Of a stretch of 64,000 bases of DNA, positions 50-42,694 are shown piece after piece (the first letter of the stretch is position 1; each line of letters starts with the position of its first letter). The position numbers and the translations under genes are program-made. This DNA is from an uncultured bacterium. Its GTDB lineage: Bacteria; Bacteroidota; Ignavibacteria; Kapaibacteriales; UBA4661. The stretch is from the NCBI GenBank assembly GCA_937899715.1, contig CALCNX010000090.1, positions 1-64,000 of the forward strand, in the 5' to 3' direction. The notes under the pieces are model-generated. The model did no database searches. It was given only the letters and a program-made list of their open reading frames with translations, and was not told the DNA's origin.

Positions 50-1009
50 GGGCTGCTCTGGAACGAAGCAAACAAGCGGGACGCACTGGTGTATCTGGAC
101 GCATTTTTAGAGAAGTTCTTTTCAGGCGTGTTACAGGGCGATGTTGACGCTGTACCGGTTCCGCGAACCGTCTATGCGCTGGCAAAAGAGTACAAAGACA
201 CGCGGCTTGGGCAGTCAGGCGCAATCGTTTTGGAGAAATTCAAAAACAGCCTACGGTTCCATTTCCCGAAAGATGTGCCGTTCTCGGCAGCAGAAATCCT
301 GTCGGCGCTCCGAGAAGCCCAATCACGGGAGCTTGCACAGTCCACACGCAAGCGCTACATGACTACGATGAAGGCGATGTTCACCTATGCGGTCGAGTGT
401 GAGTACATCAAGAAAAATCCCGTTGCAACGATTGGTATTCCCAAAGAGCCGAAAAAAATTGAACACCTCGTGTTGAAGCCAGACGAGGTTAAGCGCCTGA
501 TCGGATTCTTTGAAAACATTACAGATCGCTATCACGACGAACACGCCCTGATTTTCGAGTGGCTGTGGCGAACTGGTATGCGTGTTGGCGAGGTGATTAA
601 AATGAAGTGGAGCGATTACGACGAAGAGCGCGGTATCCTGAAAATAATTGGCAAAGGTAGTATCTATCGTGAGTTTCCCGTCTCGCTCTTCCCAGAGGCG
701 GTTGCAATACTGGAAAAGATGCGCAAGCACTCATTCCCAGACGGCAAAATATGGCGGTGGAAAAACACACAGAATATACAAACCAATTTCCGCAAGGCAG
801 CATTGGCGCTCAAGTTCAATCCGAAATACGTAGTCCACACGTTGCGAGGCAGTGCGGGATGGTACTACGAAAACGTGTTAGGTTTGGATTTTACGCTCGT
901 AGCGGAATTGCTCGGACATTCGCCCAGCATGAACATCCAACGCTACCGAAAAAAACGCACCGGGGAAGACCTCAAAGATGCCCTAAAAAAGGCGACCGAC
1001 GAGCGCTGA
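50..1009 (+). CDS. Tyrosine site-specific recombinase/integrase, 5'-truncated by the contig/adapter boundary
   Basis: Frame open from nt 50 to TGA at 1007-1009; catalytic-domain motifs R…HTLRGSAGWYY…LLGHS…NIQRY (R-H-R-Y tyrosine recombinase signature); antisense shadow ORFs ignored. Confidence 0.75.
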   Translation, partial: GLLWNEANKRDALVYLDAFLEKFFSGVLQGDVDAVPVPRTVYALAKEYKDTRLGQSGAIVLEKFKNSLRFHFPKDVPFSAAEILSALREAQSRELAQSTRKRYMTTMKAMFTYAVECEYIKKNPVATIGIPKEPKKIEHLVLKPDEVKRLIGFFENITDRYHDEHALIFEWLWRTGMRVGEVIKMKWSDYDEERGILKIIGKGSIYREFPVSLFPEAVAILEKMRKHSFPDGKIWRWKNTQNIQTNFRKAALALKFNPKYVVHTLRGSAGWYYENVLGLDFTLVAELLGHSPSMNIQRYRKKRTGEDLKDALKKATDER

Positions 1010-19005: not shown

Positions 19006-19671
19006 TTAGCGCTTCTTCCCCATAATAAACCAGCCATTTTGTTTGTTCCAGAGGAGCTCTATCATTTTGAATTTACATTCTTTGTAGAGTTTTAGATATT
19101 CGGGCGTAACATCATTTTCACATCGGTAGGCGAGTGCCGCCTGAATAGTCGTACCGATTTGAGGAAGCGTATAATCAATGCCAAGCCCTATTCCGCGCTG
19201 GTTGTCGTCGGGAGTATAGCTGATAATGCCCTTTACATCTATCAGATTCGGTGTGCTTTTCTGCCCGTAAAACTCGCTAATCCGCACACTCGGAAGAAGC
19301 TGAGACGTGACATCGCGCCATTCTCCGGCATCCAGCAAATACATCTTGAGTGTGCTACGCTTGCAGCCGTCGCCATCGCCAGGGTCGGTGATTTCTTGGT
19401 GGGCATAATACTTCGTTCCATCATCGGCAAGAAACAAGACAAACACCGTCTGCTCCGATGAATGGGTATCAGGATTCGTCGTCGTTTTGATTGACAAATA
19501 CCCGTTGGTGGCATCATAGACGACCTTATTCGTCGGCGAGGGAGTCATGGAGGCTTCAGGGCGCTTTAAGGGAAAACGCTGAAACACCTCACGCAGACTT
19601 TGCGCTGAGACGGGTACATTCCACAGAACAATAAAGGTGCTGAGAAGTAATGCAAAGAAAAATTGCTTCAT
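19006..19671 (-). CDS. Hypothetical secreted protein
   Basis: Signal peptide MKQFFFALLLSTFIVLWNVPVSAQ; no recognisable domain. Confidence 0.45.
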   Translation of the reverse strand: MKQFFFALLLSTFIVLWNVPVSAQSLREVFQRFPLKRPEASMTPSPTNKVVYDATNGYLSIKTTTNPDTHSSEQTVFVLFLADDGTKYYAHQEITDPGDGDGCKRSTLKMYLLDAGEWRDVTSQLLPSVRISEFYGQKSTPNLIDVKGIISYTPDDNQRGIGLGIDYTLPQIGTTIQAALAYRCENDVTPEYLKLYKECKFKMIELLWNKQNGWFIMGKKR

Positions 19672-19829
19672 GGTGATGGAACAAGAAAGAATGAACAAGG
19701 ATGGCGACAGCTAAGCAGCAAGAGCAAATGACGGAAAAACAAGCCGGGAGTTACGCTTTGCTCAATGATTCGGCAAATTAGAACAAAGGTTCTATTACCA
19801 ATAATTCGGACATTACCGAATACTGGAGT

Positions 19830-19916: not shown

Positions 19917-20828
19917 CTAGAATAAGAGTTCTATCGGAACAAGAACCGTTTCCTCTGCTGTCGCCGAGCGCATTGCACGACGATTGAGCAGCTTAACATT
20001 TAGTTTGATACCGATAGTACCACGCAAGGTTTTGCCCTTGAGGGAAACTTTGGGCAAGTTTTTGATTCCCATCGTCACAAGAAATACTCCCGCATCAAAA
20101 AAGCCCGAAATGCTCATAAATTCAGGCTTGAGGGCGCTATTAAGTTTTTCGTCAGCCTTATTGCCTGCAAAGAACTGAAGCCGTGTTTGTGAAGAGTCCA
20201 GTACAGGCTCGGCAACCTCCAAATCGTTCACCAGCGCCATGACAACACGATTTTTCTCGGCATCAACAGGCTTGGCAAAATCAACACGCAGCCCTTTGAT
20301 TGCAAAAGTGCATTCACCCGGCTTTGCCGTTTTCCCTTTGCCGGAGGTTGCTTCTATGCTAACCCGTGAGATGTTAAATGTTGGTGGAATCTGCTGTGTT
20401 TCATAAATATTCGACCACAAAAGCTGTTTCTCTGTGCCGGTCGCAGTTCGGTATAATTCTACTTCGACTTTTCGCGCATACCCTGGAATACGTTCCCCAA
20501 CAAAAGGCGTTTGGTACGGCACTTCTATGCGCTCATCGCCACTGAATTTGTAAGCGAGAAGAAGTTCACGCGCAGGAATATTTGCCTCAGTGGCAATGTC
20601 CGAAGAAAATCGAACATTGTCACCAAAATACAAAATTGTAGAACGAAGCGCAGAAGCGGCTTTCGGGGCAATCTTTTCCAGTTCTTTTCCCTGCCCGTAT
20701 AAATTCCCACAGAGTACCAACGACGACGACAATAAAATGAACAAAACACCAACGGTATGAAGAATTGATGCAAGTACTGATGTGCTCCAAAGTCTAATTT
20801 TTCGCATAACGTTGTGCGACAATATCAT
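19917..20828 (-). CDS. Hypothetical membrane-anchored protein
   Basis: N-terminal TM helix; 303 aa; no recognisable domain. Confidence 0.4.
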   Translation of the reverse strand: MILSHNVMRKIRLWSTSVLASILHTVGVLFILLSSSLVLCGNLYGQGKELEKIAPKAASALRSTILYFGDNVRFSSDIATEANIPARELLLAYKFSGDERIEVPYQTPFVGERIPGYARKVEVELYRTATGTEKQLLWSNIYETQQIPPTFNISRVSIEATSGKGKTAKPGECTFAIKGLRVDFAKPVDAEKNRVVMALVNDLEVAEPVLDSSQTRLQFFAGNKADEKLNSALKPEFMSISGFFDAGVFLVTMGIKNLPKVSLKGKTLRGTIGIKLNVKLLNRRAMRSATAEETVLVPIELLF

Positions 20829-35720: not shown

Positions 35721-36593
35721 TCACACCTCAAGAATTTCAAATACATTCGCACGAATAGTGCCGGAGATGGAATCAAGCGGAAGGTCGTTGGAATCAAGTC
35801 CGAAGGGTTCTTCAATTTCTTCGGCTATCATCTCCAGCCCCATAAGGATGTAACCCGCAAACATCTCCGCCGGAATGGTGTAGAGTTCATATTTTTCGAT
35901 GAGCAAAAACGGTAAGATGACTAAATAAACAAAGATGAACACCCGAATATACGTGCCATAGCTGGGCGGAATGGGAGTAAACTTTATGCGCTCACACACA
36001 CCCGTTGTATCCAGCAGCACGTCGTATTGGGGCTTCATATTGCGCATATCCTCGCCGCGAAAAATACCGCTCCGAAACAGCGTTTGCATCCGCTCAAAAA
36101 TTGCTTTGCCGATAGCGTTCGGAACGTGCTGCACCGATTGCAAGTGTTCTACGGATGCGGGGTCGAGGTCGGAAAGCTCTTCGGGAATGAAGGTATCGCG
36201 GAGGTGATTCTTGGTAGCAAACGTGTAGGCGCTGATGTGCTTGGCAAAGAAGGCGCGGTTATCCTTGTCAGCGCGAGGCAGCATGGCGTGGAGCATCGTT
36301 GCAAAAATGCGCGTGTGAATCACTAGGCTTCCCCACGCTTTGCGCCCTTCCCAAAAGCGGTCGTAAGCGGTATTCGTGCGGAAGACCAGAAGCAAACTGA
36401 GCATTGTGCCCATAAGCGACGCAAAGATGATGTCGCTCCGAAGCGGTATCCAATGGTATTTTGCTTCCACAATCAGCAAAACAAGCGTGTATAAGCCAAA
36501 CCACGCAATACGCTTCAGCAAAAGCGCCATTGTGCCGCGTGTGTGAAAATCCAACAACGTGCTGAAAAATTTGGGTGCGCGTTCGTCGCTCAT
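35721..36593 (-). CDS. Bestrophin-like / UPF0187 (YneE) family membrane protein, paralog A
   Basis: LFRTNTAYDRFWEGRKAWGSLV family signature; about 60% identical to paralog at 40029-40928. Confidence 0.65.
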   Translation of the reverse strand: MSDERAPKFFSTLLDFHTRGTMALLLKRIAWFGLYTLVLLIVEAKYHWIPLRSDIIFASLMGTMLSLLLVFRTNTAYDRFWEGRKAWGSLVIHTRIFATMLHAMLPRADKDNRAFFAKHISAYTFATKNHLRDTFIPEELSDLDPASVEHLQSVQHVPNAIGKAIFERMQTLFRSGIFRGEDMRNMKPQYDVLLDTTGVCERIKFTPIPPSYGTYIRVFIFVYLVILPFLLIEKYELYTIPAEMFAGYILMGLEMIAEEIEEPFGLDSNDLPLDSISGTIRANVFEILEV

Positions 36594-36841
36594 AACGGCT
36601 TTCCTAACGCTTGAGAGGATGAAAGAAAACAACAATAAATACAACCACTGCTTGCCTTGCGAATAGGCAGCGCCGAGCGAAATTAACCAATCCATGTGCA
36701 ATTCGCAAACGGAATCCCGAAAAAAGCCTGCGAGGAAAATTTATTTGCCCACCCCAAAGTTTTTCTTCATCTTTGCACCGTGCAAATGGCTCTCCATGCT
36801 GCATATTTCTACCATAGCTCCAAACAGTAGTGTAAAAGTAA

Positions 36842-37207
36842 ACTGATTTAATACTGCTAGCCGCAAAAGGTGGTGACGGACTGACGGCATCGCAGCCGAC
36901 ACCTCCGCAAGAAACGATAGCACAGCACAATAATCCTCAATACGAAAGTTCTCTTACGCTAGCAGCATATCCGAACCCCGCTTCTGACCGATGCACATTG
37001 GGCTTTACCTTGCCAACCGATGAATCTGTTCGTCTGACCATCTATGATATGCTCGGTAAACAGTTAGAAGTACCGCTCAACGAAAACCTTCGTGCAGGTG
37101 AGTATAACTTTGCCCTCTCTACACGCCACTTTGCTGCCGGAACTTACATTTGTCGTTTGGAAACCCCAACACAACGAGTTCATGTACGATTAACTATTGT
37201 CAAATAA
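36842..37207 (+). pseudogene. Orphan T9SS C-terminal sorting domain remnant (no start codon, no cargo domain)
   Basis: Open frame from TAA at 36839 encodes …LAAYPNPASDRCTLGFTLPTDESVRLTIYDMLGKQLEVPLNENLRAGEYNFALSTRHFAAGTYICRLETPTQRVHVRLTIVK, a canonical Por_Secre_tail, with no ATG/GTG upstream in frame. Confidence 0.6.
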
Positions 37208-37227: not shown

Positions 37228-38121
37228 ATGAAAAACCTCTCAAAATACATTATACTCGCTCTCTGTGGCACGATGCTGTTCGTTCAGTGCGATATACTGA
37301 ATCCGCCTATCACGTTTTCTACGACAAGCGGTAACGTCCTAGGGGTATTCCCAAACGGAACACTAAGCCCGCTTGATTCGGTGAAAATTGAGGTGGATGG
37401 CTCTGTCCGAGACATTTCTAAAGCCGATGGTACTTTTTCGGTAAGCGGTTTGACGGCAGGAAAATCCTACCGCTTCCGCTTGCTTGGACGGGGTGATTTG
37501 CTCTTGGATTCGACTATTACTATTCAAGCTAATGATGCCTCGCTACCGAAGGACAAGCAAACAGCAAAAGCACTCTCGTTGAAAGTTCGATTAACCGGAA
37601 AAGAGCTTGATGCTCGATTCTTTCGGTTTCCCCTTGCTGTTGGGAATCAATGGAATTATGAGGTAAACGAAATAAGGAAAACAATCTATAATGGTATGAC
37701 AGCTATTTCTTCCGATAGCTGGAAAGCTAGTATTACGATCTCAGGAAAATCATCCCAAAATCAAGATATTCTTTGGGCTGCTGATGTGACCGAAAATCAA
37801 TATCACTGGCAATACAATTTTAAGCAAACTGACACCCTCTTGTTTTTATGGAATTATGTTCCTCTTGTTTCAGCAGATAAATTATTTCAATATGGATTTA
37901 ATCCGCAAATTCCTATGTTTAAAGAACGGCGCATTATAGCTCCCAATGACACATTAAGCCAAATCGTTGCGGTTCATGCTCCTATGGGTAATGCTAGAGC
38001 AAAAATTGTTCATACTATCGGTATTGTGGAAATTTATGATGTTGAAGGCTTTCGTGCTAATGATGGCTATGCTGTTACTCGAGAGACTACTTATACCCTT
38101 AAATCCTATACGCTCAAGTAG
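37228..38121 (+). CDS. Putative lipoprotein, tandem paralog 1 (shared N-terminal module, divergent C-terminus)
   Basis: Signal/lipobox …LFVQC; residues ~20-145 identical to the next gene; C-terminal …TYTLKSYTLK. Confidence 0.55.
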   Translation: MKNLSKYIILALCGTMLFVQCDILNPPITFSTTSGNVLGVFPNGTLSPLDSVKIEVDGSVRDISKADGTFSVSGLTAGKSYRFRLLGRGDLLLDSTITIQANDASLPKDKQTAKALSLKVRLTGKELDARFFRFPLAVGNQWNYEVNEIRKTIYNGMTAISSDSWKASITISGKSSQNQDILWAADVTENQYHWQYNFKQTDTLLFLWNYVPLVSADKLFQYGFNPQIPMFKERRIIAPNDTLSQIVAVHAPMGNARAKIVHTIGIVEIYDVEGFRANDGYAVTRETTYTLKSYTLK

Positions 38122-38126
38122 AACAA

Positions 38127-39038
38127 ATGCTACAATCAAGGATAAAACTCTCACCTATTGCTTTCATATTCATCTGCACTGGCTTTTTGTTCGTTCAGTG
38201 CGATATACTGAATCCACCCATCACGTTTTCTACGACAAGCGGTAACGTCCTAGGGGTATTCCCAAACGGAACACTAAGCCCGCTTGATTCGGTGAAAATT
38301 GAGGTGGATGGCTCTGTCCGAGACATTTCTAAAGCCGATGGTACTTTTTCGGTAAGCGGTTTGACGGCAGGAAAATCCTACCGCTTCCGCTTGCTTGGAC
38401 GGGGTGATTTGCTCTTGGATTCGACTATTACTATTCAAGCTAATGATGCCTCGCTACCGAAGGACAAGCAAACAGCAAAAGCACTCTCGTTGAAAGTTCG
38501 ATTAACCGGAAAAGAGCTTGATGCTCGATTCTTTCGGTTTCCCCTTGCTGTTGGGAATCAATGGAATTATGAGGTAAGTCAAATTACCCATAATGCTTTC
38601 AATGGTAATAGTTATTACGATACCGCTCGTTGGAAGGCGAATATGTCCATCATTAAAGTTGAACAGGACGGTAAAGATACATTATGGCATTTCGCTGCTT
38701 TTGATAACAATAACCCAAATGTTCGCAATGTCATTTGCCGACAAACAGATTCTCTCCTTTATCTATGGAATACACCACCACGACCACAAGGATATGCGGT
38801 AACACTTTTATCCTTCAGCGATTATCTAAGTATTCGCTCACCCTTACCTCTTACAGAACTTTCCTCGGATACTTTAAAAATTATAATAGGCGGTCTTCTT
38901 CCTGGAAATAATACGAGCAAACTTCTTCACAAAGTTGGTCTCATCGAAATTTCTGACATTGAGGCTGCGCGTATGAACGGTGGAATTTCCTACTCGCGCC
39001 AAACTATCTATAAACTTACTTCCTATACCCTCAAGTAG
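38127..39038 (+). CDS. Putative lipoprotein, tandem paralog 2
   Basis: Shares a near-identical 390-nt 5' module (38188-38577 vs 37277-37666); diverged middle; similar C-terminal end …IYKLTSYTLK. Confidence 0.55.
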   Translation: MLQSRIKLSPIAFIFICTGFLFVQCDILNPPITFSTTSGNVLGVFPNGTLSPLDSVKIEVDGSVRDISKADGTFSVSGLTAGKSYRFRLLGRGDLLLDSTITIQANDASLPKDKQTAKALSLKVRLTGKELDARFFRFPLAVGNQWNYEVSQITHNAFNGNSYYDTARWKANMSIIKVEQDGKDTLWHFAAFDNNNPNVRNVICRQTDSLLYLWNTPPRPQGYAVTLLSFSDYLSIRSPLPLTELSSDTLKIIIGGLLPGNNTSKLLHKVGLIEISDIEAARMNGGISYSRQTIYKLTSYTLK

Positions 39039-39152
39039 GACAATAGCATTTTCCGTATATTTGTACATTACTACGATAGAGGTTGCATTGTAAGACGTTC
39101 TCTTCGTTTGTACTCCGCTACCTCGGATAGAAGCCGATATTTTCATCCATGA

Positions 39153-40010
39153 ATGCCCGCTATGAGACATCGTTATGTGAATCCCTTTACCGACTTTGGT
39201 TTCAAAAAGCTCTTTGGCGAGGAAGCTCATAAATCCCTCCTCATTGATTTTTTGAATGCTCTTTTGCCGTCAAAGCACCACGTCCGCAATCTTGAATACA
39301 CAAAAAACGAGGCAGCAGGTGAAACATCACTGGACAGAAGAGCCGTTTTTGATATTGCCTGCATGGGCGAAAACGGTGAGCGTTTTATTGTGGAACTCCA
39401 AAAAGCAAAACAGAATTTTTTCAAAGATCGCAGCGTGTTTTATGCAACCTTTCCCATCCGTGAACAAGCGGAACGGGGCGATAATTGGAACTTTGAACTC
39501 GCCGCAGTCTATTGTATCGGCATTTTGGATTTTGTATTTGATGAGGATAAAGACAAGGCAGACTATTTGCACTTTGTACAACTCAAAAATCAGCACAATG
39601 CCGTTTTTTATGATAAACTAGCGTTTGTCTATCTTGAAATGCCTAAATTTCTGAAGACCGAAACAGAGTTGGAAACGCAGACCGACAAGTGGCTATATTT
39701 TATCAAGCACCTGAGTGCCATAGAGGAAATTCCGCCGCCGCTTCGGGAGCAGGTGTTTGAGGAGGCTTTTCACGCAGCAGAGATAGCGAAGTTTACCCCT
39801 GCGCAGGCACAGGAATATGAAACATCGCTTAAATACTATCGTGATTTGCAAAATGTGATGGAAACAGCAATAGTGGAAGCGGAAGCACGAGGCGAAAGAA
39901 GAAACCAAGAGCAGACAGCCCGTCGGCTCTTGCAAATGGGGTTACCGATTGATGACATTACCAAAGCAACGGGCTTGAGTGCTGATGAAATCAAGCGATT
40001 GCAGCAATAA
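39153..40010 (+). CDS. Rpn-family recombination-promoting nuclease / PD-(D/E)XK 'putative transposase' (YhgA-like)
   Basis: N-terminal RYVNPFTDFGFKKLFG motif and C-terminal …LLQMGLPIDDITKATGLSADEI typical of the family. Confidence 0.6.
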   Translation: MPAMRHRYVNPFTDFGFKKLFGEEAHKSLLIDFLNALLPSKHHVRNLEYTKNEAAGETSLDRRAVFDIACMGENGERFIVELQKAKQNFFKDRSVFYATFPIREQAERGDNWNFELAAVYCIGILDFVFDEDKDKADYLHFVQLKNQHNAVFYDKLAFVYLEMPKFLKTETELETQTDKWLYFIKHLSAIEEIPPPLREQVFEEAFHAAEIAKFTPAQAQEYETSLKYYRDLQNVMETAIVEAEARGERRNQEQTARRLLQMGLPIDDITKATGLSADEIKRLQQ

Positions 40011-40028: not shown

Positions 40029-40928
40029 TCAAAACTCCTGCACCGGGTCTTCCTTGATTTCCACGCCCAAGATTTCATGAACGTTCAGGTAGATTGTCCG
40101 CGCCATAGCATCAAGCGGAAGGTCGTTGCTGTCCAGTCCGAAGGGTTCTTCAATTTCTCCGGCGATCATCTCAATCCCCATCAGAGCATAAGCGGCAAAC
40201 ATAATCGAAGGAATGGTGTAATAGCCGTACTTATCCATCAGCAAAAACGGCAGCACACAGACGTAAATGGTGATAAAGAGCTTGATATAAAATCCGTAGG
40301 AAAACGGAATCGGTGTTCGCTTGATGCGCTCACACACGCCGGCAATGTCAATTAACGCGTCGTGGTGCGGTTTCACCGAGCGCAAGTGCGGGTCGGCTAT
40401 CAGTTTTTGCTTACGGAGTTGTTCAATGCGGGCGAAAAGCTCCGCGCCGATAAGGTTGGGAACGTGCATTGCATTTTGCAAACGCTCAAGTAACTTTTCA
40501 TCCAGACCCTCAAGTTCCACAAAATGGATATTATCGCGTAAGTGTCCTTTGAGTGCGTGTGCGTAAGCGGAGATATATTTGGCAAAGAACGTACGATTTT
40601 CGGTATCATCTTTCTCCAAAATACCATGCACAATCATCGCAAAACTGCGGCTGTTATTCACAAGCGAACCCCATGCTTTGCGTCCTTCCCAAAAGCGATC
40701 GTAGGCGGTGTTTGTGCGAAAGACCAACAAAAGACTGAGCAGCGTTCCCAAGAGCGAAAGCAAGATGGTATCTATACGCACCGAAATCGGAAAGAAATTT
40801 CCGACCACAAACACCAAAATACCAGTGTAAATGCCAAAAAATACGACGCGCCGCAAAAGAATTTTAATGGCATCGCTCGTGTGAAATTCTTTGAACGACC
40901 GCAACACGTGAAGCATGTTTTCCCACAT
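40029..40928 (-). CDS. Bestrophin-like / UPF0187 family membrane protein, paralog B
   Basis: LFRTNTAYDRFWEGRKAWGSLV signature; start at ATG 40928 avoids overlap with argS stop. Confidence 0.65.
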   Translation of the reverse strand: MWENMLHVLRSFKEFHTSDAIKILLRRVVFFGIYTGILVFVVGNFFPISVRIDTILLSLLGTLLSLLLVFRTNTAYDRFWEGRKAWGSLVNNSRSFAMIVHGILEKDDTENRTFFAKYISAYAHALKGHLRDNIHFVELEGLDEKLLERLQNAMHVPNLIGAELFARIEQLRKQKLIADPHLRSVKPHHDALIDIAGVCERIKRTPIPFSYGFYIKLFITIYVCVLPFLLMDKYGYYTIPSIMFAAYALMGIEMIAGEIEEPFGLDSNDLPLDAMARTIYLNVHEILGVEIKEDPVQEF

Positions 40929-40957
40929 ATCGGTTTCCCTGACAGAAGTGACACAAA

Positions 40958-42694
40958 CTACATTTTTTCGGGTGCCTTTATTCCAAGCACCGCCAGCCCA
41001 TTGTTCAGAACAGTTTTTGCCGCTCTCAAAAGGGCAAATCGTGCTTGCATGAGGCTCTCTTCCTCGCCTAATATACGACAATCATGGTAAAATTTATGAA
41101 ATGCTGCTGCTACTTCGCGTAAATATTCTGCGATTACCTGCGGTTCCAGTGTCTCTGCCGCGCGCAGAATAATTTCGGGAAAGCGCAAAACAAATTTGAT
41201 AAGTTCAATTTCCGACGGATGCAGAAGCAACGTCGTGTCGGCTGTCTTGGCGATTTGTACGCCCCGCTCTTCTGCCGTGCGCATAATAGACGCAATGCGA
41301 GCATGAGCATACTGCAAGTAAAATACCGGATTTTTTTCGGACTGCTCCTCTGCCAAATTCAGGTCAAATTCCAAATGCGTCGAAACGCCACGCATCAGAA
41401 AGAAAAAGCGCGTTACGTCTTCGCCAAATTCTTCCAAGAGGTCGTCCAGCGTGTAACTGCGCCCTGTTCGTTTGGACATCTTCACTTGCTCACCGTCTTT
41501 CATCAGCGTTACGAACTGGTGAATCACCACGCGCACTTTTGATTTTTCCTCGCCCAACGCCTCCACAGCCGCCATCACATCAGGAATCGTTGCAATATGG
41601 TCAGCACCAAAAATATCAACCACAAGGTCGAATTTACGACGCGCCAATTTGTCGTGATGATAGGCAATATCCGGCAAACGGTACGTTGGCTCGCCGGATG
41701 ACTTGATAATCACGCGGTCGTCCGTCATACCCATACGCGAGAGTGCAAGCCATGTTGCACCGTCTTTCTCATAAACAAACCCTTTTTCGCGCAGACGCTC
41801 AATCGTGTCTTTCACTTTGCCATCAGTGTAGAGCGAATCCTCGTTGAAATATACGTCGTGGTGAATGTTCATGCGCTTCATGGTGGCATGAATTGTCGCA
41901 AAGCACCATTCTTCGCCAGCTTTACGGCAAATCGTCAAATTCTCCTCACTTGCTTCTTTGAGCGCTGCACCGTGCTTGTCAGCAAGCGCTTGAGCGATTT
42001 CCTTGATATACTCGCCATGATACAAACCTTTATCTTCCTCAGAAAACTCCACGCTTGCATCAAGAATCTGCAAATAGCGCGTGTGGACGGAGCGCCCAAG
42101 ATTATTCATCTGGTTTCCGGCGTTGTTGAAATAGTATTCGCGGGTAACGTCGTAGCCATTCCAGACGAGAATATTCGCCAGCGTGTCGCCAATGGCAGCA
42201 TTACGACCGTGCCCGACGTGAAGCAGTCCTGTGGGGTTCGCACTCACATATTCCACGTTTGCCTTGATGCCACGCCCGCGCTCATTCCGCCCGATATTCT
42301 CACCCTCAAGCAATAAATCTTGAAGTCGCATACCATAAAAACTCGGTGCAAACGTGAAGTTGATGAATCCTGCTCCGGCAATGGAAATATCGGTAATCAC
42401 CGCACTATTGACGCTGCTTTTGAGAATTTCGACAAGATTGACGGCAAGTTCACGCGGATTTTTTTTGAGTGCTTTTGCAAGTGTCATTGCAGCATTGGTC
42501 GAAAGGTCGCCGTGCTCCGCATTGCGCGGTACTTCAAGTGTGATTTCCGTAGGTGCATCAATCCCGAGCGTAAGAGAAAGTGTTTTCAGAGCGTCATGCA
42601 GAATAGGCGTAAGATATGATTTCATAATGCTTAGAACGTGTAAAATGTCGGTAGAATGGAAAGGAAAATTTGTAATACCAAATTGAAATGACAA
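40958..42694 (-). CDS. argS: Arginine--tRNA ligase
   Basis: Class I HIGH motif (HVGHGRNAAIGD) and KMSKR motif; 578 aa. Confidence 0.85.
   Translation of the reverse strand: MSFQFGITNFPFHSTDILHVLSIMKSYLTPILHDALKTLSLTLGIDAPTEITLEVPRNAEHGDLSTNAAMTLAKALKKNPRELAVNLVEILKSSVNSAVITDISIAGAGFINFTFAPSFYGMRLQDLLLEGENIGRNERGRGIKANVEYVSANPTGLLHVGHGRNAAIGDTLANILVWNGYDVTREYYFNNAGNQMNNLGRSVHTRYLQILDASVEFSEEDKGLYHGEYIKEIAQALADKHGAALKEASEENLTICRKAGEEWCFATIHATMKRMNIHHDVYFNEDSLYTDGKVKDTIERLREKGFVYEKDGATWLALSRMGMTDDRVIIKSSGEPTYRLPDIAYHHDKLARRKFDLVVDIFGADHIATIPDVMAAVEALGEEKSKVRVVIHQFVTLMKDGEQVKMSKRTGRSYTLDDLLEEFGEDVTRFFFLMRGVSTHLEFDLNLAEEQSEKNPVFYLQYAHARIASIMRTAEERGVQIAKTADTTLLLHPSEIELIKFVLRFPEIILRAAETLEPQVIAEYLREVAAAFHKFYHDCRILGEEESLMQARFALLRAAKTVLNNGLAVLGIKAPEKM

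What the first reader, a model, noticed from the sequence alone, without database searches (positions are those of the whole stretch)
37228..39038. Tandem lipoprotein genes sharing a near-identical 390-bp 5' module with diverged 3' halves: candidate cassette-type variable surface lipoprotein pair
Nucleotides 37277-37666 and 38188-38577 are almost identical. I saw only about 2 mismatches (ccgcctatc vs ccacccatc). They encode the same ~125-aa segment (FVQCDILNPPITFST…FPLAVGNQWNYEV). The downstream ~150 codons of each gene are unrelated in sequence and AT-richer, although both end with …(T/L)(K/T)SYTLK. Near-perfect identity confined to one module implies recent gene conversion or recombination, or a shared-N-terminus system with variable C-termini. 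That pattern is reminiscent of phase-variable or polymorphic surface-protein families.
Basis: seen in the sequence. Interest (0 to 1): 0.65.

Follow-up and report, generated by a model that had tools for sequence, protein, structure and literature searches.

The report
Tandem lipoprotein paralogs homogenised by recombination
Two neighbouring genes for rare, uncharacterised lipoproteins share a 390-base stretch made identical by recent recombination while the rest diverged long ago, which is a clean new example of a known way that tandem gene families evolve, not a new variation system.

Summary
The repeat is real. Positions 37277-37666 and 38188-38577 match at 388 of 390 bases, with 358 identical in a row. 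It is the only long repeat in the 64 kb.

It lies in two co-oriented genes 5 nt apart (37228-38121 and 38127-39038). Each has its own start codon and signal peptide with a conserved Cys.

The 3' halves are not unrelated. They are ancient homologs (31% aa identity, E 1e-22) with saturated synonymous sites. The shared module has dS 0.03 and dN 0, so recombination, not selection, made it identical.

Related contigs show the module acting as a recombination site:
- Two other assemblies of the same strain carry a single hybrid gene that lacks exactly one 911-bp unit.
- A sister genome has a foreign-looking patch over the signal peptide and most of the module.
- A relative about 80% identical also has the tandem arrangement.

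I found no silent cassettes, inverted repeats, simple repeats, nearby invertase or reverse transcriptase.

The closest analogue is the Staphylococcus aureus lpl lipoprotein cluster, by mechanism and not by homology. The family is very rare. The proteins have a transthyretin-like N-domain and a poorly modelled beta-rich C-domain. The host is an uncultured Kapaibacteria/Ignavibacteria-like bacterium.

Verdict: a new member of a known kind, of modest interest.

The parts
36998..37207 (+). Orphan remnant of a type IX secretion C-terminal sorting domain. It has no N-terminal part and forms the left flank ('A') of the locus.
   Evidence: TIGR04183 Por_Secre_tail, E 1e-6. The reading frame is closed by a stop about 55 codons upstream. 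The remnant is conserved next to the lipoprotein gene in L001-L005.
37228..38121 (+). Gene 1: 297-aa putative lipoprotein (signal peptide sp1 + shared module + C-half type 1).
   Evidence: ORF. It is P0001 in the protein collection. Its C1 half has no close relative among about 15 billion proteins.
37228..37276 (+). 5' variable region of gene 1 (signal peptide sp1, MKNLSKYIILALCGTM...).
   Evidence: 20/49 identical to sp2 in the codon alignment. About 90% conserved in L004.
37277..37666 (+). Shared module, copy 1. It encodes LFVQC (the conserved Cys), the transthyretin-like domain, a linker and the family motif FPLAVGNQWNYEV.
37667..38121 (+). C-half type 1 (C1), AT-rich (GC3 0.28).
37667..38577 (+). 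The 911-bp unit (C1 + 5-nt spacer + sp2 + one module copy) that is absent from the otherwise identical contigs L001 and L002.
   Evidence: L001 and L002 are 100% identical to the window up to 37666 and continue at 38578. They carry gene 1's SNP alleles. Their product is P0002 = sp1 + module + C2.
38122..38126 (+). 5-nt intergenic spacer AACAA. There is no terminator, so the genes are probably co-transcribed.
   Evidence: The same gene-end / spacer / sp2 junction is conserved at 83% in L006.
38127..39038 (+). Gene 2: 303-aa putative lipoprotein (sp2 + shared module + C-half type 2).
   Evidence: ORF. It is P0043, on the same 110,967-nt public contig as gene 1. Its C2 half is orthologous to that of P0003 in L003 (dS 0.38, dN 0.045).
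38188..38577 (+). Shared module, copy 2.
39153..40010 (+). Rpn-family PD-(D/E)XK nuclease / putative transposase gene, a conserved right-hand neighbour. No link to the repeat is shown.
   Evidence: PF12784, E 1.6e-73; TIGR01784, E 1.7e-29. It is also adjacent in L001 and L003 but absent next to L004/L005 and L087.
35721..36701 (-). Bestrophin-family gene, the left one of two paralogs that bracket the locus.
   Evidence: PF25539, E 4e-68. DNA is 71-79% identical in patches to 40029-41081.
40029..41081 (-). Bestrophin-family gene, the right-hand paralog.
   Evidence: PF25539, E 1.4e-73. The same bracket is present in L003.

Best explanation
Genes 1 and 2 are old tandem paralogs of a rare lipoprotein family, probably co-transcribed.

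A 390-bp stretch covers the lipobox Cys, the transthyretin-like N-domain, a linker and the family's most conserved motif (FPLAVGNQWNYEV). Very recent homologous recombination, either gene conversion or repeated unequal crossing-over, made this stretch identical in the two genes. The event could not spread into the signal-peptide codons or the C-halves, because those are too diverged to pair.

Once identical, the two direct repeats become a substrate for further RecA-type exchange. Crossing-over between them removes one 911-bp unit and leaves a hybrid gene (sp1-module-C2). Exchange with other strains replaces patches that end in the same conserved 3' part of the module.

Shown here: the mosaic pattern, the synonymous-site contrast, the exact one-unit difference between assemblies, the replaced patch in a sister genome, and a tandem arrangement in a more distant relative.

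Inferred: the enzymology (general homologous recombination), co-transcription, lipidation, and a cell-envelope binding role in which the N-domain is a stalk and the C-domain a diverged binding head.
For: 1. Recombination rather than selection. Between genes 1 and 2 the module has dS 0.031 and dN 0. The C-halves have pS 0.72 (saturated) and dN 0.70. The identical run is 358 nt, against at most 42 in 10,000 shuffles.
2. The genes are true paralogs over their whole length: C-halves 31% identical, E 1e-22.
3. L001 (SPAdes) and L002 (MEGAHIT, activated sludge) are 100% identical to the window but lack exactly 37667-38577. They encode sp1-module-C2.
4. L003 is a sister genome (flank genes dS 0.10-0.47, dN 0.006-0.016). 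Its C2 half fits vertical descent (dS 0.38, dN 0.045). In the signal peptide plus the first ~100 module codons, pS is 0.76 and dN 0.24. The patch spans about 37235-37585 and ends just before the motif-coding part.
5. L006, about 80% identical, carries module-C3-stop-spacer-sp2-module and closes on itself inside the module with a 53-nt overlap. The tandem layout and a repeated module therefore exist in a second lineage.
6. The modules of L004/L005 and L006 are mosaics of each other.
7. There is no dedicated variation machinery at the locus.
8. The same pattern and model are published for the S. aureus lpl cluster (PMC2568036).
Against: - Direction and number of events are unknown. Two copies cannot distinguish one conversion from two crossovers.
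- The single-gene form could be a low-coverage assembly collapse of the loop rather than a real deletion. L001 has only 4x coverage. I could not see reads.
- Assembly can over-homogenise near-identical repeats.
- The residue before the conserved Cys is Gln (VQ|C). This is unusual for a lipobox, so lipidation is inferred from the family alignment, where distant members have S|C.
- Function is unknown, and the C-domain model has low confidence (pLDDT 35-78).
Confidence: 0.75

Rival explanations
1. A programmed variation system. The two direct repeats, perhaps with the adjacent Rpn-family nuclease, would mediate frequent reversible loss, gain or shuffling of the 911-bp unit. The population would then switch between expressing C1 + C2 and a single hybrid lipoprotein.
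For: - A one-unit length polymorphism separates otherwise identical sequences from three assemblies.
- An Rpn/PDDEXK_2 gene is the conserved neighbour in the window, L001 and L003. E. coli Rpn proteins promote RecA-independent recombination (PMC5350276, title and abstract).
- L006 closes on itself as a 905-bp unit. That is the size of a circle excised by recombination between the repeats, or of an amplified array.
Against: - There are no silent cassettes, inverted repeats, SSRs or a nearby invertase.
- There are only two copies, and both are complete genes.
- The Rpn gene is absent next to L004/L005 and the distant relative L087. In L003 it carries a 46-nt 5' deletion.
- The self-closing contig and the single-gene contigs are also what short-read assemblers produce from a tandem repeat.
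- Rpn genes are currently read as toxin-antitoxin phage-defence genes (PMC10400941 abstract).
Confidence: 0.1
2. An assembly artefact. The tandem pair would be a chimeric join of two strain alleles of one gene, or the identity of the two modules would be produced by consensus collapse.
For: - The window is very probably a MAG contig.
- Two other assemblies of the same strain show only one gene.
- There was no read-level check.
Against: - The junction (end of the upstream gene, 5-nt spacer, start and signal peptide of gene 2, start of the module) is conserved at 83% in an independent contig from a different organism (L006).
- The unit carries 521 nt of unique sequence with intact reading frames.
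- The copies keep two distinguishing SNPs.
- Collapse cannot create 358 identical bases from sequences about 50% identical.
Confidence: 0.07
3. Identity maintained only by strong purifying selection on the N-terminal domain after an old duplication, with no recombination.
For: - The module contains the family's most conserved motif.
- All amino acids of the module are identical between the copies.
Against: - Synonymous sites are identical too (dS 0.03, against saturation in the C-halves).
- The same module is the least conserved part between the window and its sister genome L003 (dN 0.24, dS saturated).
Confidence: 0.01
4. A diversity-generating retroelement, with one copy as template repeat and the other as variable repeat.
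For: The arrangement is two near-identical repeats, one of them in the gene of a surface-type protein.
Against: - There are only two mismatches (G/A and T/C), both synonymous and not adenine-specific.
- The repeat is the N-terminal part and not a C-terminal variable region.
- No reverse transcriptase was found among the ORFs of at least 150 aa scanned with Pfam in the window.
Confidence: 0.01

Closest known systems
Staphylococcus aureus lpl (lipoprotein-like) tandem paralog cluster on the nuSa-alpha island (Tsuru & Kobayashi 2008, PMC2568036)
   Same: - Co-oriented tandem lipoprotein paralogs.
- A nucleotide-level conserved region inside each ORF, flanked by a variable 5' region (signal peptide) and a variable 3' region.
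- Strain-to-strain deletions and shuffles whose breakpoints fall in the conserved region.
[quoted passage not shown] Here this is exactly the 911-bp unit that differs between the window and L001/L002.
   Different: - There is no sequence homology (no Pfam match).
- The host is a different phylum, free-living in activated sludge.
- There are two genes, not up to ten.
- The conserved region is longer (390 nt vs 132 nt) and essentially identical (99.5%, against an average of 88%).
- The 5' variable part is only the signal peptide.
- The C-half of the upstream gene is not conserved together with the downstream signal peptide between lineages (C1 vs C3).
Concerted evolution of bacterial paralogs by partial gene conversion (e.g. 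the survey in PMC6053082, title and abstract only)
   Same: The paralogs are more alike within a genome than orthologs are between genomes. The conversion tract is bounded by loss of homology.
   Different: The cases described there are reported as mostly long-lasting. Here the tract covers under half of an orphan, poorly conserved envelope protein, and it coexists with replacement of the same segment between strains.
Cassette or phase-variable surface lipoprotein systems (Mycoplasma vsp/vlp-type families, Borrelia vls, Neisseria pilE/pilS; from general knowledge and the review PMC4534519, listed)
   Same: These are surface-type lipoproteins with a shared N-terminal part and differing remainder, with recombination between copies.
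   Different: No silent cassette bank, no invertible element, no site-specific recombinase and no repeats prone to slippage. Both copies are expressed-type complete genes.
Carboxypeptidase-regulatory / transthyretin-like N-terminal domains (PF13620/PF13715), such as the SusC N-terminal extension
   Different: The window proteins do not reach any Pfam threshold. The domain is fused to a lipoprotein signal and an unrelated beta-rich C-domain.

Membership tests
lpl-type tandem paralog cluster with a central recombination region (a mechanistic class, not a homology family) | Co-oriented tandem paralogous lipoprotein genes | tested here: met
   Two ORFs lie 5 nt apart. They are homologous over their full length, and each has a signal peptide with a conserved Cys.
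lpl-type tandem paralog cluster with a central recombination region (a mechanistic class, not a homology family) | A nucleotide-level conserved region inside each ORF, flanked by variable 5' and 3' regions | tested here: met
   The module is 388/390 identical, the signal-peptide region 20/49 and the C-halves 218/449.
lpl-type tandem paralog cluster with a central recombination region (a mechanistic class, not a homology family) | Rearrangements between strains with breakpoints in the conserved region | tested here: inconclusive
   L001/L002 lack exactly one unit, with the junction inside the module. The replaced patch in L003 ends inside the module. However, the single-gene form could be an assembly collapse, and no reads were available.
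lpl-type tandem paralog cluster with a central recombination region (a mechanistic class, not a homology family) | [quoted passage not shown] | tested here: inconclusive
   The last ~35 nt of the upstream gene, the spacer and sp2 are 83% conserved in L006. The bulk of the upstream C-half differs (C1 vs C3, about 30% aa identity).
S. aureus Lpl protein family (homology) | Sequence membership in the Lpl/DUF576 lipoprotein family | tested here: not met
   Neither protein has a Pfam or NCBIfam match above threshold.
Cassette / phase-variable surface protein system | Additional silent or partial cassettes available as donors | tested here: not met
   blastn and tblastn of the locus against the 64-kb window find no other copy. 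The rest of the genome could not be searched.
Cassette / phase-variable surface protein system | An invertible promoter or inverted repeats, a site-specific recombinase next to the locus, or slippage-prone simple repeats | tested here: not met
   There are no significant inverted repeats or SSRs. The neighbours are bestrophins and an Rpn nuclease. The only tyrosine recombinase is at 89-1009, 36 kb away.
Cassette / phase-variable surface protein system | Within-population heterogeneity of the locus | not testable with these tools
   This needs the reads of the source sample, ERZ650283 and DRR046817. Only assemblies were available.
Diversity-generating retroelement | Template/variable repeat pair differing at adenines, plus a reverse transcriptase | tested here: not met
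   The mismatches are G/A and T/C and are synonymous. No reverse transcriptase was found among the ORFs of at least 150 aa scanned with Pfam.
Bacterial lipoprotein (Lgt/LspA substrate) | Signal peptide ending in a lipobox with an invariant Cys | tested here: inconclusive
   The basic n-region, hydrophobic core and Cys are conserved in all family members. Position -1 is Gln in this clade (FVQ|C), against Ser in distant members. No lipoprotein predictor was available.
Carboxypeptidase-regulatory / transthyretin-like domain | Seven-stranded beta-sandwich of the transthyretin type | tested here: met

The most novel reading that the evidence does not exclude
The 390-bp direct repeats form a recombinational switch in a free-living Kapaibacteria-like bacterium. 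The 911-bp unit would be lost, regained or amplified at appreciable frequency, possibly helped by the conserved neighbouring Rpn-family nuclease. One clonal population would then hold cells with two lipoproteins (C1 and C2 heads), one hybrid, or more. The elevated third-position GC of the module (0.44, against 0.21-0.32 in the C-halves and 0.35 in the single-copy L003 module) would be a footprint of long-running, GC-biased conversion.
Probability: 0.1. Interest if true: 0.55.

Novelty: new member of a known kind. Interest (0 to 1): 0.3.

Why it matters
This is a compact natural example of how a conserved stretch inside tandem paralogs becomes a recombination site. It homogenises one part of the genes while the rest diverges, and it creates hybrid genes and copy-number differences between strains. 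That behaviour was worked out in the S. aureus lpl cluster. Here it appears in an uncultured environmental lineage and in an orphan protein family with only about half a dozen full-length relatives among 1.8 billion representative proteins.

There are two practical consequences:
- Such loci are places where short-read metagenome assemblies of the same strain disagree (one gene or two).
- Annotation pipelines can report chimeric proteins there.

It does not open a new mechanism, and the proteins' function is unknown.

Tried and rejected
- More family members with context. The search for related loci with the family alignment found nothing in genome contigs, metagenome contigs or viral contigs. 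The wider alignment A3 was too diverse to seed a scan.
- The window's own contig. The look-up of encoding contigs found no record for gene 1 or gene 2, so the rest of the genome and the sample identity stayed out of reach.
- Wider homolog searches. The word-indexed search with a 9-sequence profile added no new full-length members. The exhaustive HMM search gave only P0006, P0018, P0009, P0010 and P0027 as true distant relatives. All other hits matched only the transthyretin-like repeat of giant proteins.
- A C-domain-only paralog downstream of the distant relative P0010 (L087). hhalign probability was 1%, so I rejected it.
- DGR, invertible promoter, SSR phase variation and purifying selection alone were all considered and rejected (see the rival explanations).
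- Promoter and terminator scan. Counts were at or below shuffle expectation, so it was uninformative.
- Organism. The best ArgRS matches are only 60% identical, to Kapaibacteria, Ignavibacteria and Bacteroidota MAGs. No closer placement was possible.
Full report
**1. The observation**

The window holds two co-oriented ORFs, 37228-38121 (297 aa) and 38127-39038 (303 aa), separated by the 5-nt spacer AACAA.

Positions 37277-37666 and 38188-38577 (offset 911) are identical at 388 of 390 positions. The mismatches are at 37305 (G/A) and 37308 (T/C), and both are synonymous. Downstream of them the two copies are identical for 358 nt.

In a codon alignment of the two genes (888 aligned sites, 70% identical overall), 10,000 column shuffles gave a longest identical run of 17 on average and never more than 42. 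A self-comparison of the whole 64 kb finds no other repeat of this kind.

One statement is wrong. The 3' halves are not unrelated. They align from end to end with 31% amino-acid identity, E 1e-22.

The AT-richness is real. GC is 36.7% and 39.5% in the 3' halves, against 46.7% in the module and 47.0% in the window. Third-position GC is 0.28 and 0.32 in the 3' halves, 0.44 in the module, and about 0.5 in most neighbouring genes.

**2. What the two genes are**

Each begins with a basic n-region, a hydrophobic core and the sequence LFVQ-C-D. The module starts exactly at these last signal-peptide codons.

Neither protein reaches any Pfam or NCBIfam threshold. The family is very small:
- The word-indexed search of 5.8 billion clusters returned five proteins.
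- An exhaustive profile search of 1.84 billion representatives returned one close representative (P0003) and five convincing distant relatives (P0006, P0018, P0009, P0010, P0027). All other hits matched only a short repeat of giant proteins.

The distant relatives share a common plan:
- a signal peptide ending in S-C;
- one or two copies of the N-terminal domain (…LLDSTITI…);
- the motif FPLAVGNEW-Y;
- a beta-rich C-terminal part ending in …SY-LK(P).

The C-domain is poorly modelled (pLDDT 35-78). Its weak resemblance to 8-10-stranded barrels is only a hint.

The module does not end at the domain border. It runs through the linker and the conserved motif into the first strand of the C-domain. 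Its 3' edge is therefore set by sequence conservation, not by domain architecture.

**3. The organism and the neighbourhood**

The arginyl-tRNA synthetase of the window is at best 60% identical to those of Kapaibacteria, Ignavibacteria and Bacteroidota MAGs. One related contig comes from activated sludge.

The window is ordinary chromosome. It holds a SusC/SusD-like pair, type IX secretion cargo, peptidases, sensor kinases and tRNA synthetase.

Immediately around the locus:
- Upstream lies an orphan remnant of a type IX secretion sorting domain (36998-37207; TIGR04183, E 1e-6).
- Downstream lies an Rpn-family PD-(D/E)XK gene (39153-40010).
- The whole is bracketed by two bestrophin paralogs on the other strand.

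There is no invertase or reverse transcriptase. The only tyrosine recombinase is 36 kb away. There are no significant inverted repeats, simple repeats or terminators at the locus.

**4. Recombination, not selection**

| Comparison | Segment | Synonymous | Non-synonymous |
|---|---|---|---|
| gene 1 vs gene 2 | module | dS 0.031 | dN 0 |
| gene 1 vs gene 2 | C-halves | pS 0.72 (saturated) | dN 0.70 |

An old duplication with a very recent homogenisation of one segment is the only reading that fits. Purifying selection cannot erase synonymous differences.

**5. What related contigs add**

(a) L001 (SPAdes, 4x coverage) and L002 (MEGAHIT, activated sludge run DRR046817) are 100% identical to the window up to 37666 and then continue at 38578. 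They carry gene 1's two SNP alleles. Their product, P0002, is sp1 + module + C2. They differ from the window by exactly one 911-bp unit, which is the product expected from crossing-over between the two direct repeats.
- This form could also be an assembly collapse of the loop at low coverage.
- No fragment of the C1 half exists anywhere else in the 15-billion-protein collection. That leans slightly towards a real deletion haplotype, but short contigs may simply have been filtered out.

(b) L003 (GCA_044227435.1) is a sister genome with the same gene order and a single gene.

| Window vs L003 | Synonymous | dN |
|---|---|---|
| flanking genes | dS 0.10-0.47 | 0.006-0.016 |
| C2 half | dS 0.38 | 0.045 |
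| first ~100 codons of the module | pS 0.76 (saturated) | 0.24 |

The sliding-window comparison shows the divergent stretch also covers the signal peptide. The divergent patch is about 37235-37585. Identity returns to about 88% in the last 80 nt of the module, which encode the conserved motif.

Because synonymous sites are saturated, one lineage imported this patch from a distant allele. It did not evolve fast in place.

(c) L006 is 958 nt and about 80% identical. It reads: module positions 51-390, a third C-half type (C3), stop, spacer, an sp2-like signal peptide, module positions 1-103. Its first 53 nt equal its last 53 nt.
- The junction (gene end, spacer, sp2) is 83% identical to the window.
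- The tandem layout with a repeated module is therefore real and exists in a second lineage. This also argues against a chimeric assembly of the window.

(d) L004 and L005 carry the tail of the sorting-domain remnant, sp1, the module and 13 codons of C2. After that the sequence is unrelated, and the genomic context is different. Their module is nearly the same as that of L006 for about 290 nt and then differs in a 40-nt patch, where L006 is identical to the window. This is a further small mosaic.

**6. Mechanism**

The best-supported model has three steps:
- An old tandem duplication produced two paralogs.
- The module stayed similar enough to pair, because it holds the family's most conserved motif.
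- General homologous recombination then homogenised it by conversion or unequal crossing-over. It also removes or adds the 911-bp unit and exchanges patches between strains.

The tract stops where homology stops, at the signal-peptide codons on one side and the C-halves on the other.

This is the model proposed for the Staphylococcus aureus lpl lipoprotein cluster. [quoted passage not shown] The correspondence is mechanistic only, because the proteins are not homologous.

Inferred, not shown:
- Co-transcription, from the 5-nt spacer and the absence of a terminator.
- Lipidation. The Cys is conserved across the family, but Gln at -1 is unusual.
- A role as envelope proteins with a constant stalk and diverged heads.

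**7. Rivals**

- A programmed switch, possibly helped by the Rpn-family neighbour, is not excluded and is the most novel reading (about 10%). E. coli Rpn proteins promote RecA-independent recombination (PMC5350276). However, they are now read as toxin-antitoxin defence genes (PMC10400941). The neighbour is missing at L004/L005 and L087 and is damaged in L003. None of the usual hallmarks of phase or cassette variation is present.
- An assembly artefact is unlikely for the tandem itself, because of the L006 junction. It remains possible for the single-gene contigs and for the last percent of identity.
- A DGR and pure selection are contradicted.

**8. Verdict**

The recombination inference is supported. 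The cassette / phase-variation reading is not supported, and 'unrelated 3' halves' is incorrect.

This is a new member of a known kind, in a rare orphan family of an uncultured lineage. Interest is 0.3.

Noticed in passing
window 35721-36701 (-) and 40029-41081 (-): Two bestrophin-family paralogs (PF25539) bracket the lipoprotein + Rpn block at a spacing of 4338 nt. Patches of their DNA are 71-79% identical. The same bracket is present in L003. The block therefore sits inside an older tandem duplication, or was inserted between the duplicates.
   Followed up: partly
window 36830-37207 (+): An orphan type IX secretion C-terminal sorting domain (TIGR04183, E 1e-6) with no protein in front of it. 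The frame is closed about 55 codons upstream. Its tail travels with the lipoprotein gene even in L004/L005, where the wider context is different.
   Followed up: partly
L003 9973-10050 and 11040-11165: In the sister genome, the ATG that corresponds to gene 1's start is out of frame by one base with the mature coding part. The called gene starts at a TTG and has a signal peptide without a basic n-region. The adjacent Rpn-family gene has a 46-nt deletion that removes its 5' end. Both genes may be decaying there, or these may be sequence errors.
   Followed up: partly
window 37277-37666 vs 37667-38121 and 38578-39038; L003 and L006: Third-position GC is 0.44 in the module where it is duplicated (window and L006) and 0.35 where it is single (L003). 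It is 0.21-0.35 in all C-halves. Most neighbouring genes have about 0.5. This might be a trace of GC-biased conversion or of foreign origin of the family. I did not test it.
   Followed up: no
L006 1-53 and 906-958: The 958-nt contig closes on itself with a 53-nt overlap inside the module, giving a 905-bp unit. This is most simply an assembly loop. It is also the size expected for an excised circle or an amplified array.
   Followed up: partly
L004 8698-9268 / L005 3-552: A 570-bp block (sorting-domain tail + sp1 + module + 13 codons of C2) sits between a methylmalonyl-CoA mutase gene and an alcohol dehydrogenase gene in two JGI samples. It ends in a short out-of-family tail and so looks like a truncated, relocated copy.
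   Followed up: partly
window 89-1009 (+): A phage-integrase-family tyrosine recombinase lies at the very start of the window, 36 kb from the locus. I did not examine what it belongs to.
   Followed up: no
window 39003-39043 vs 38086-38126: Similarity between the two gene ends continues 5 nt past the stop codons (TAGAACAA vs TAGGACAA; 80% over 41 nt). The ancestral duplicated unit probably included the spacer.
   Followed up: no
window 19006-19698 (-) and 19917-20828 (-): Two ORFs of 230 and 303 aa have no Pfam match. They are not related to the lipoprotein pair by tblastn.
   Followed up: no
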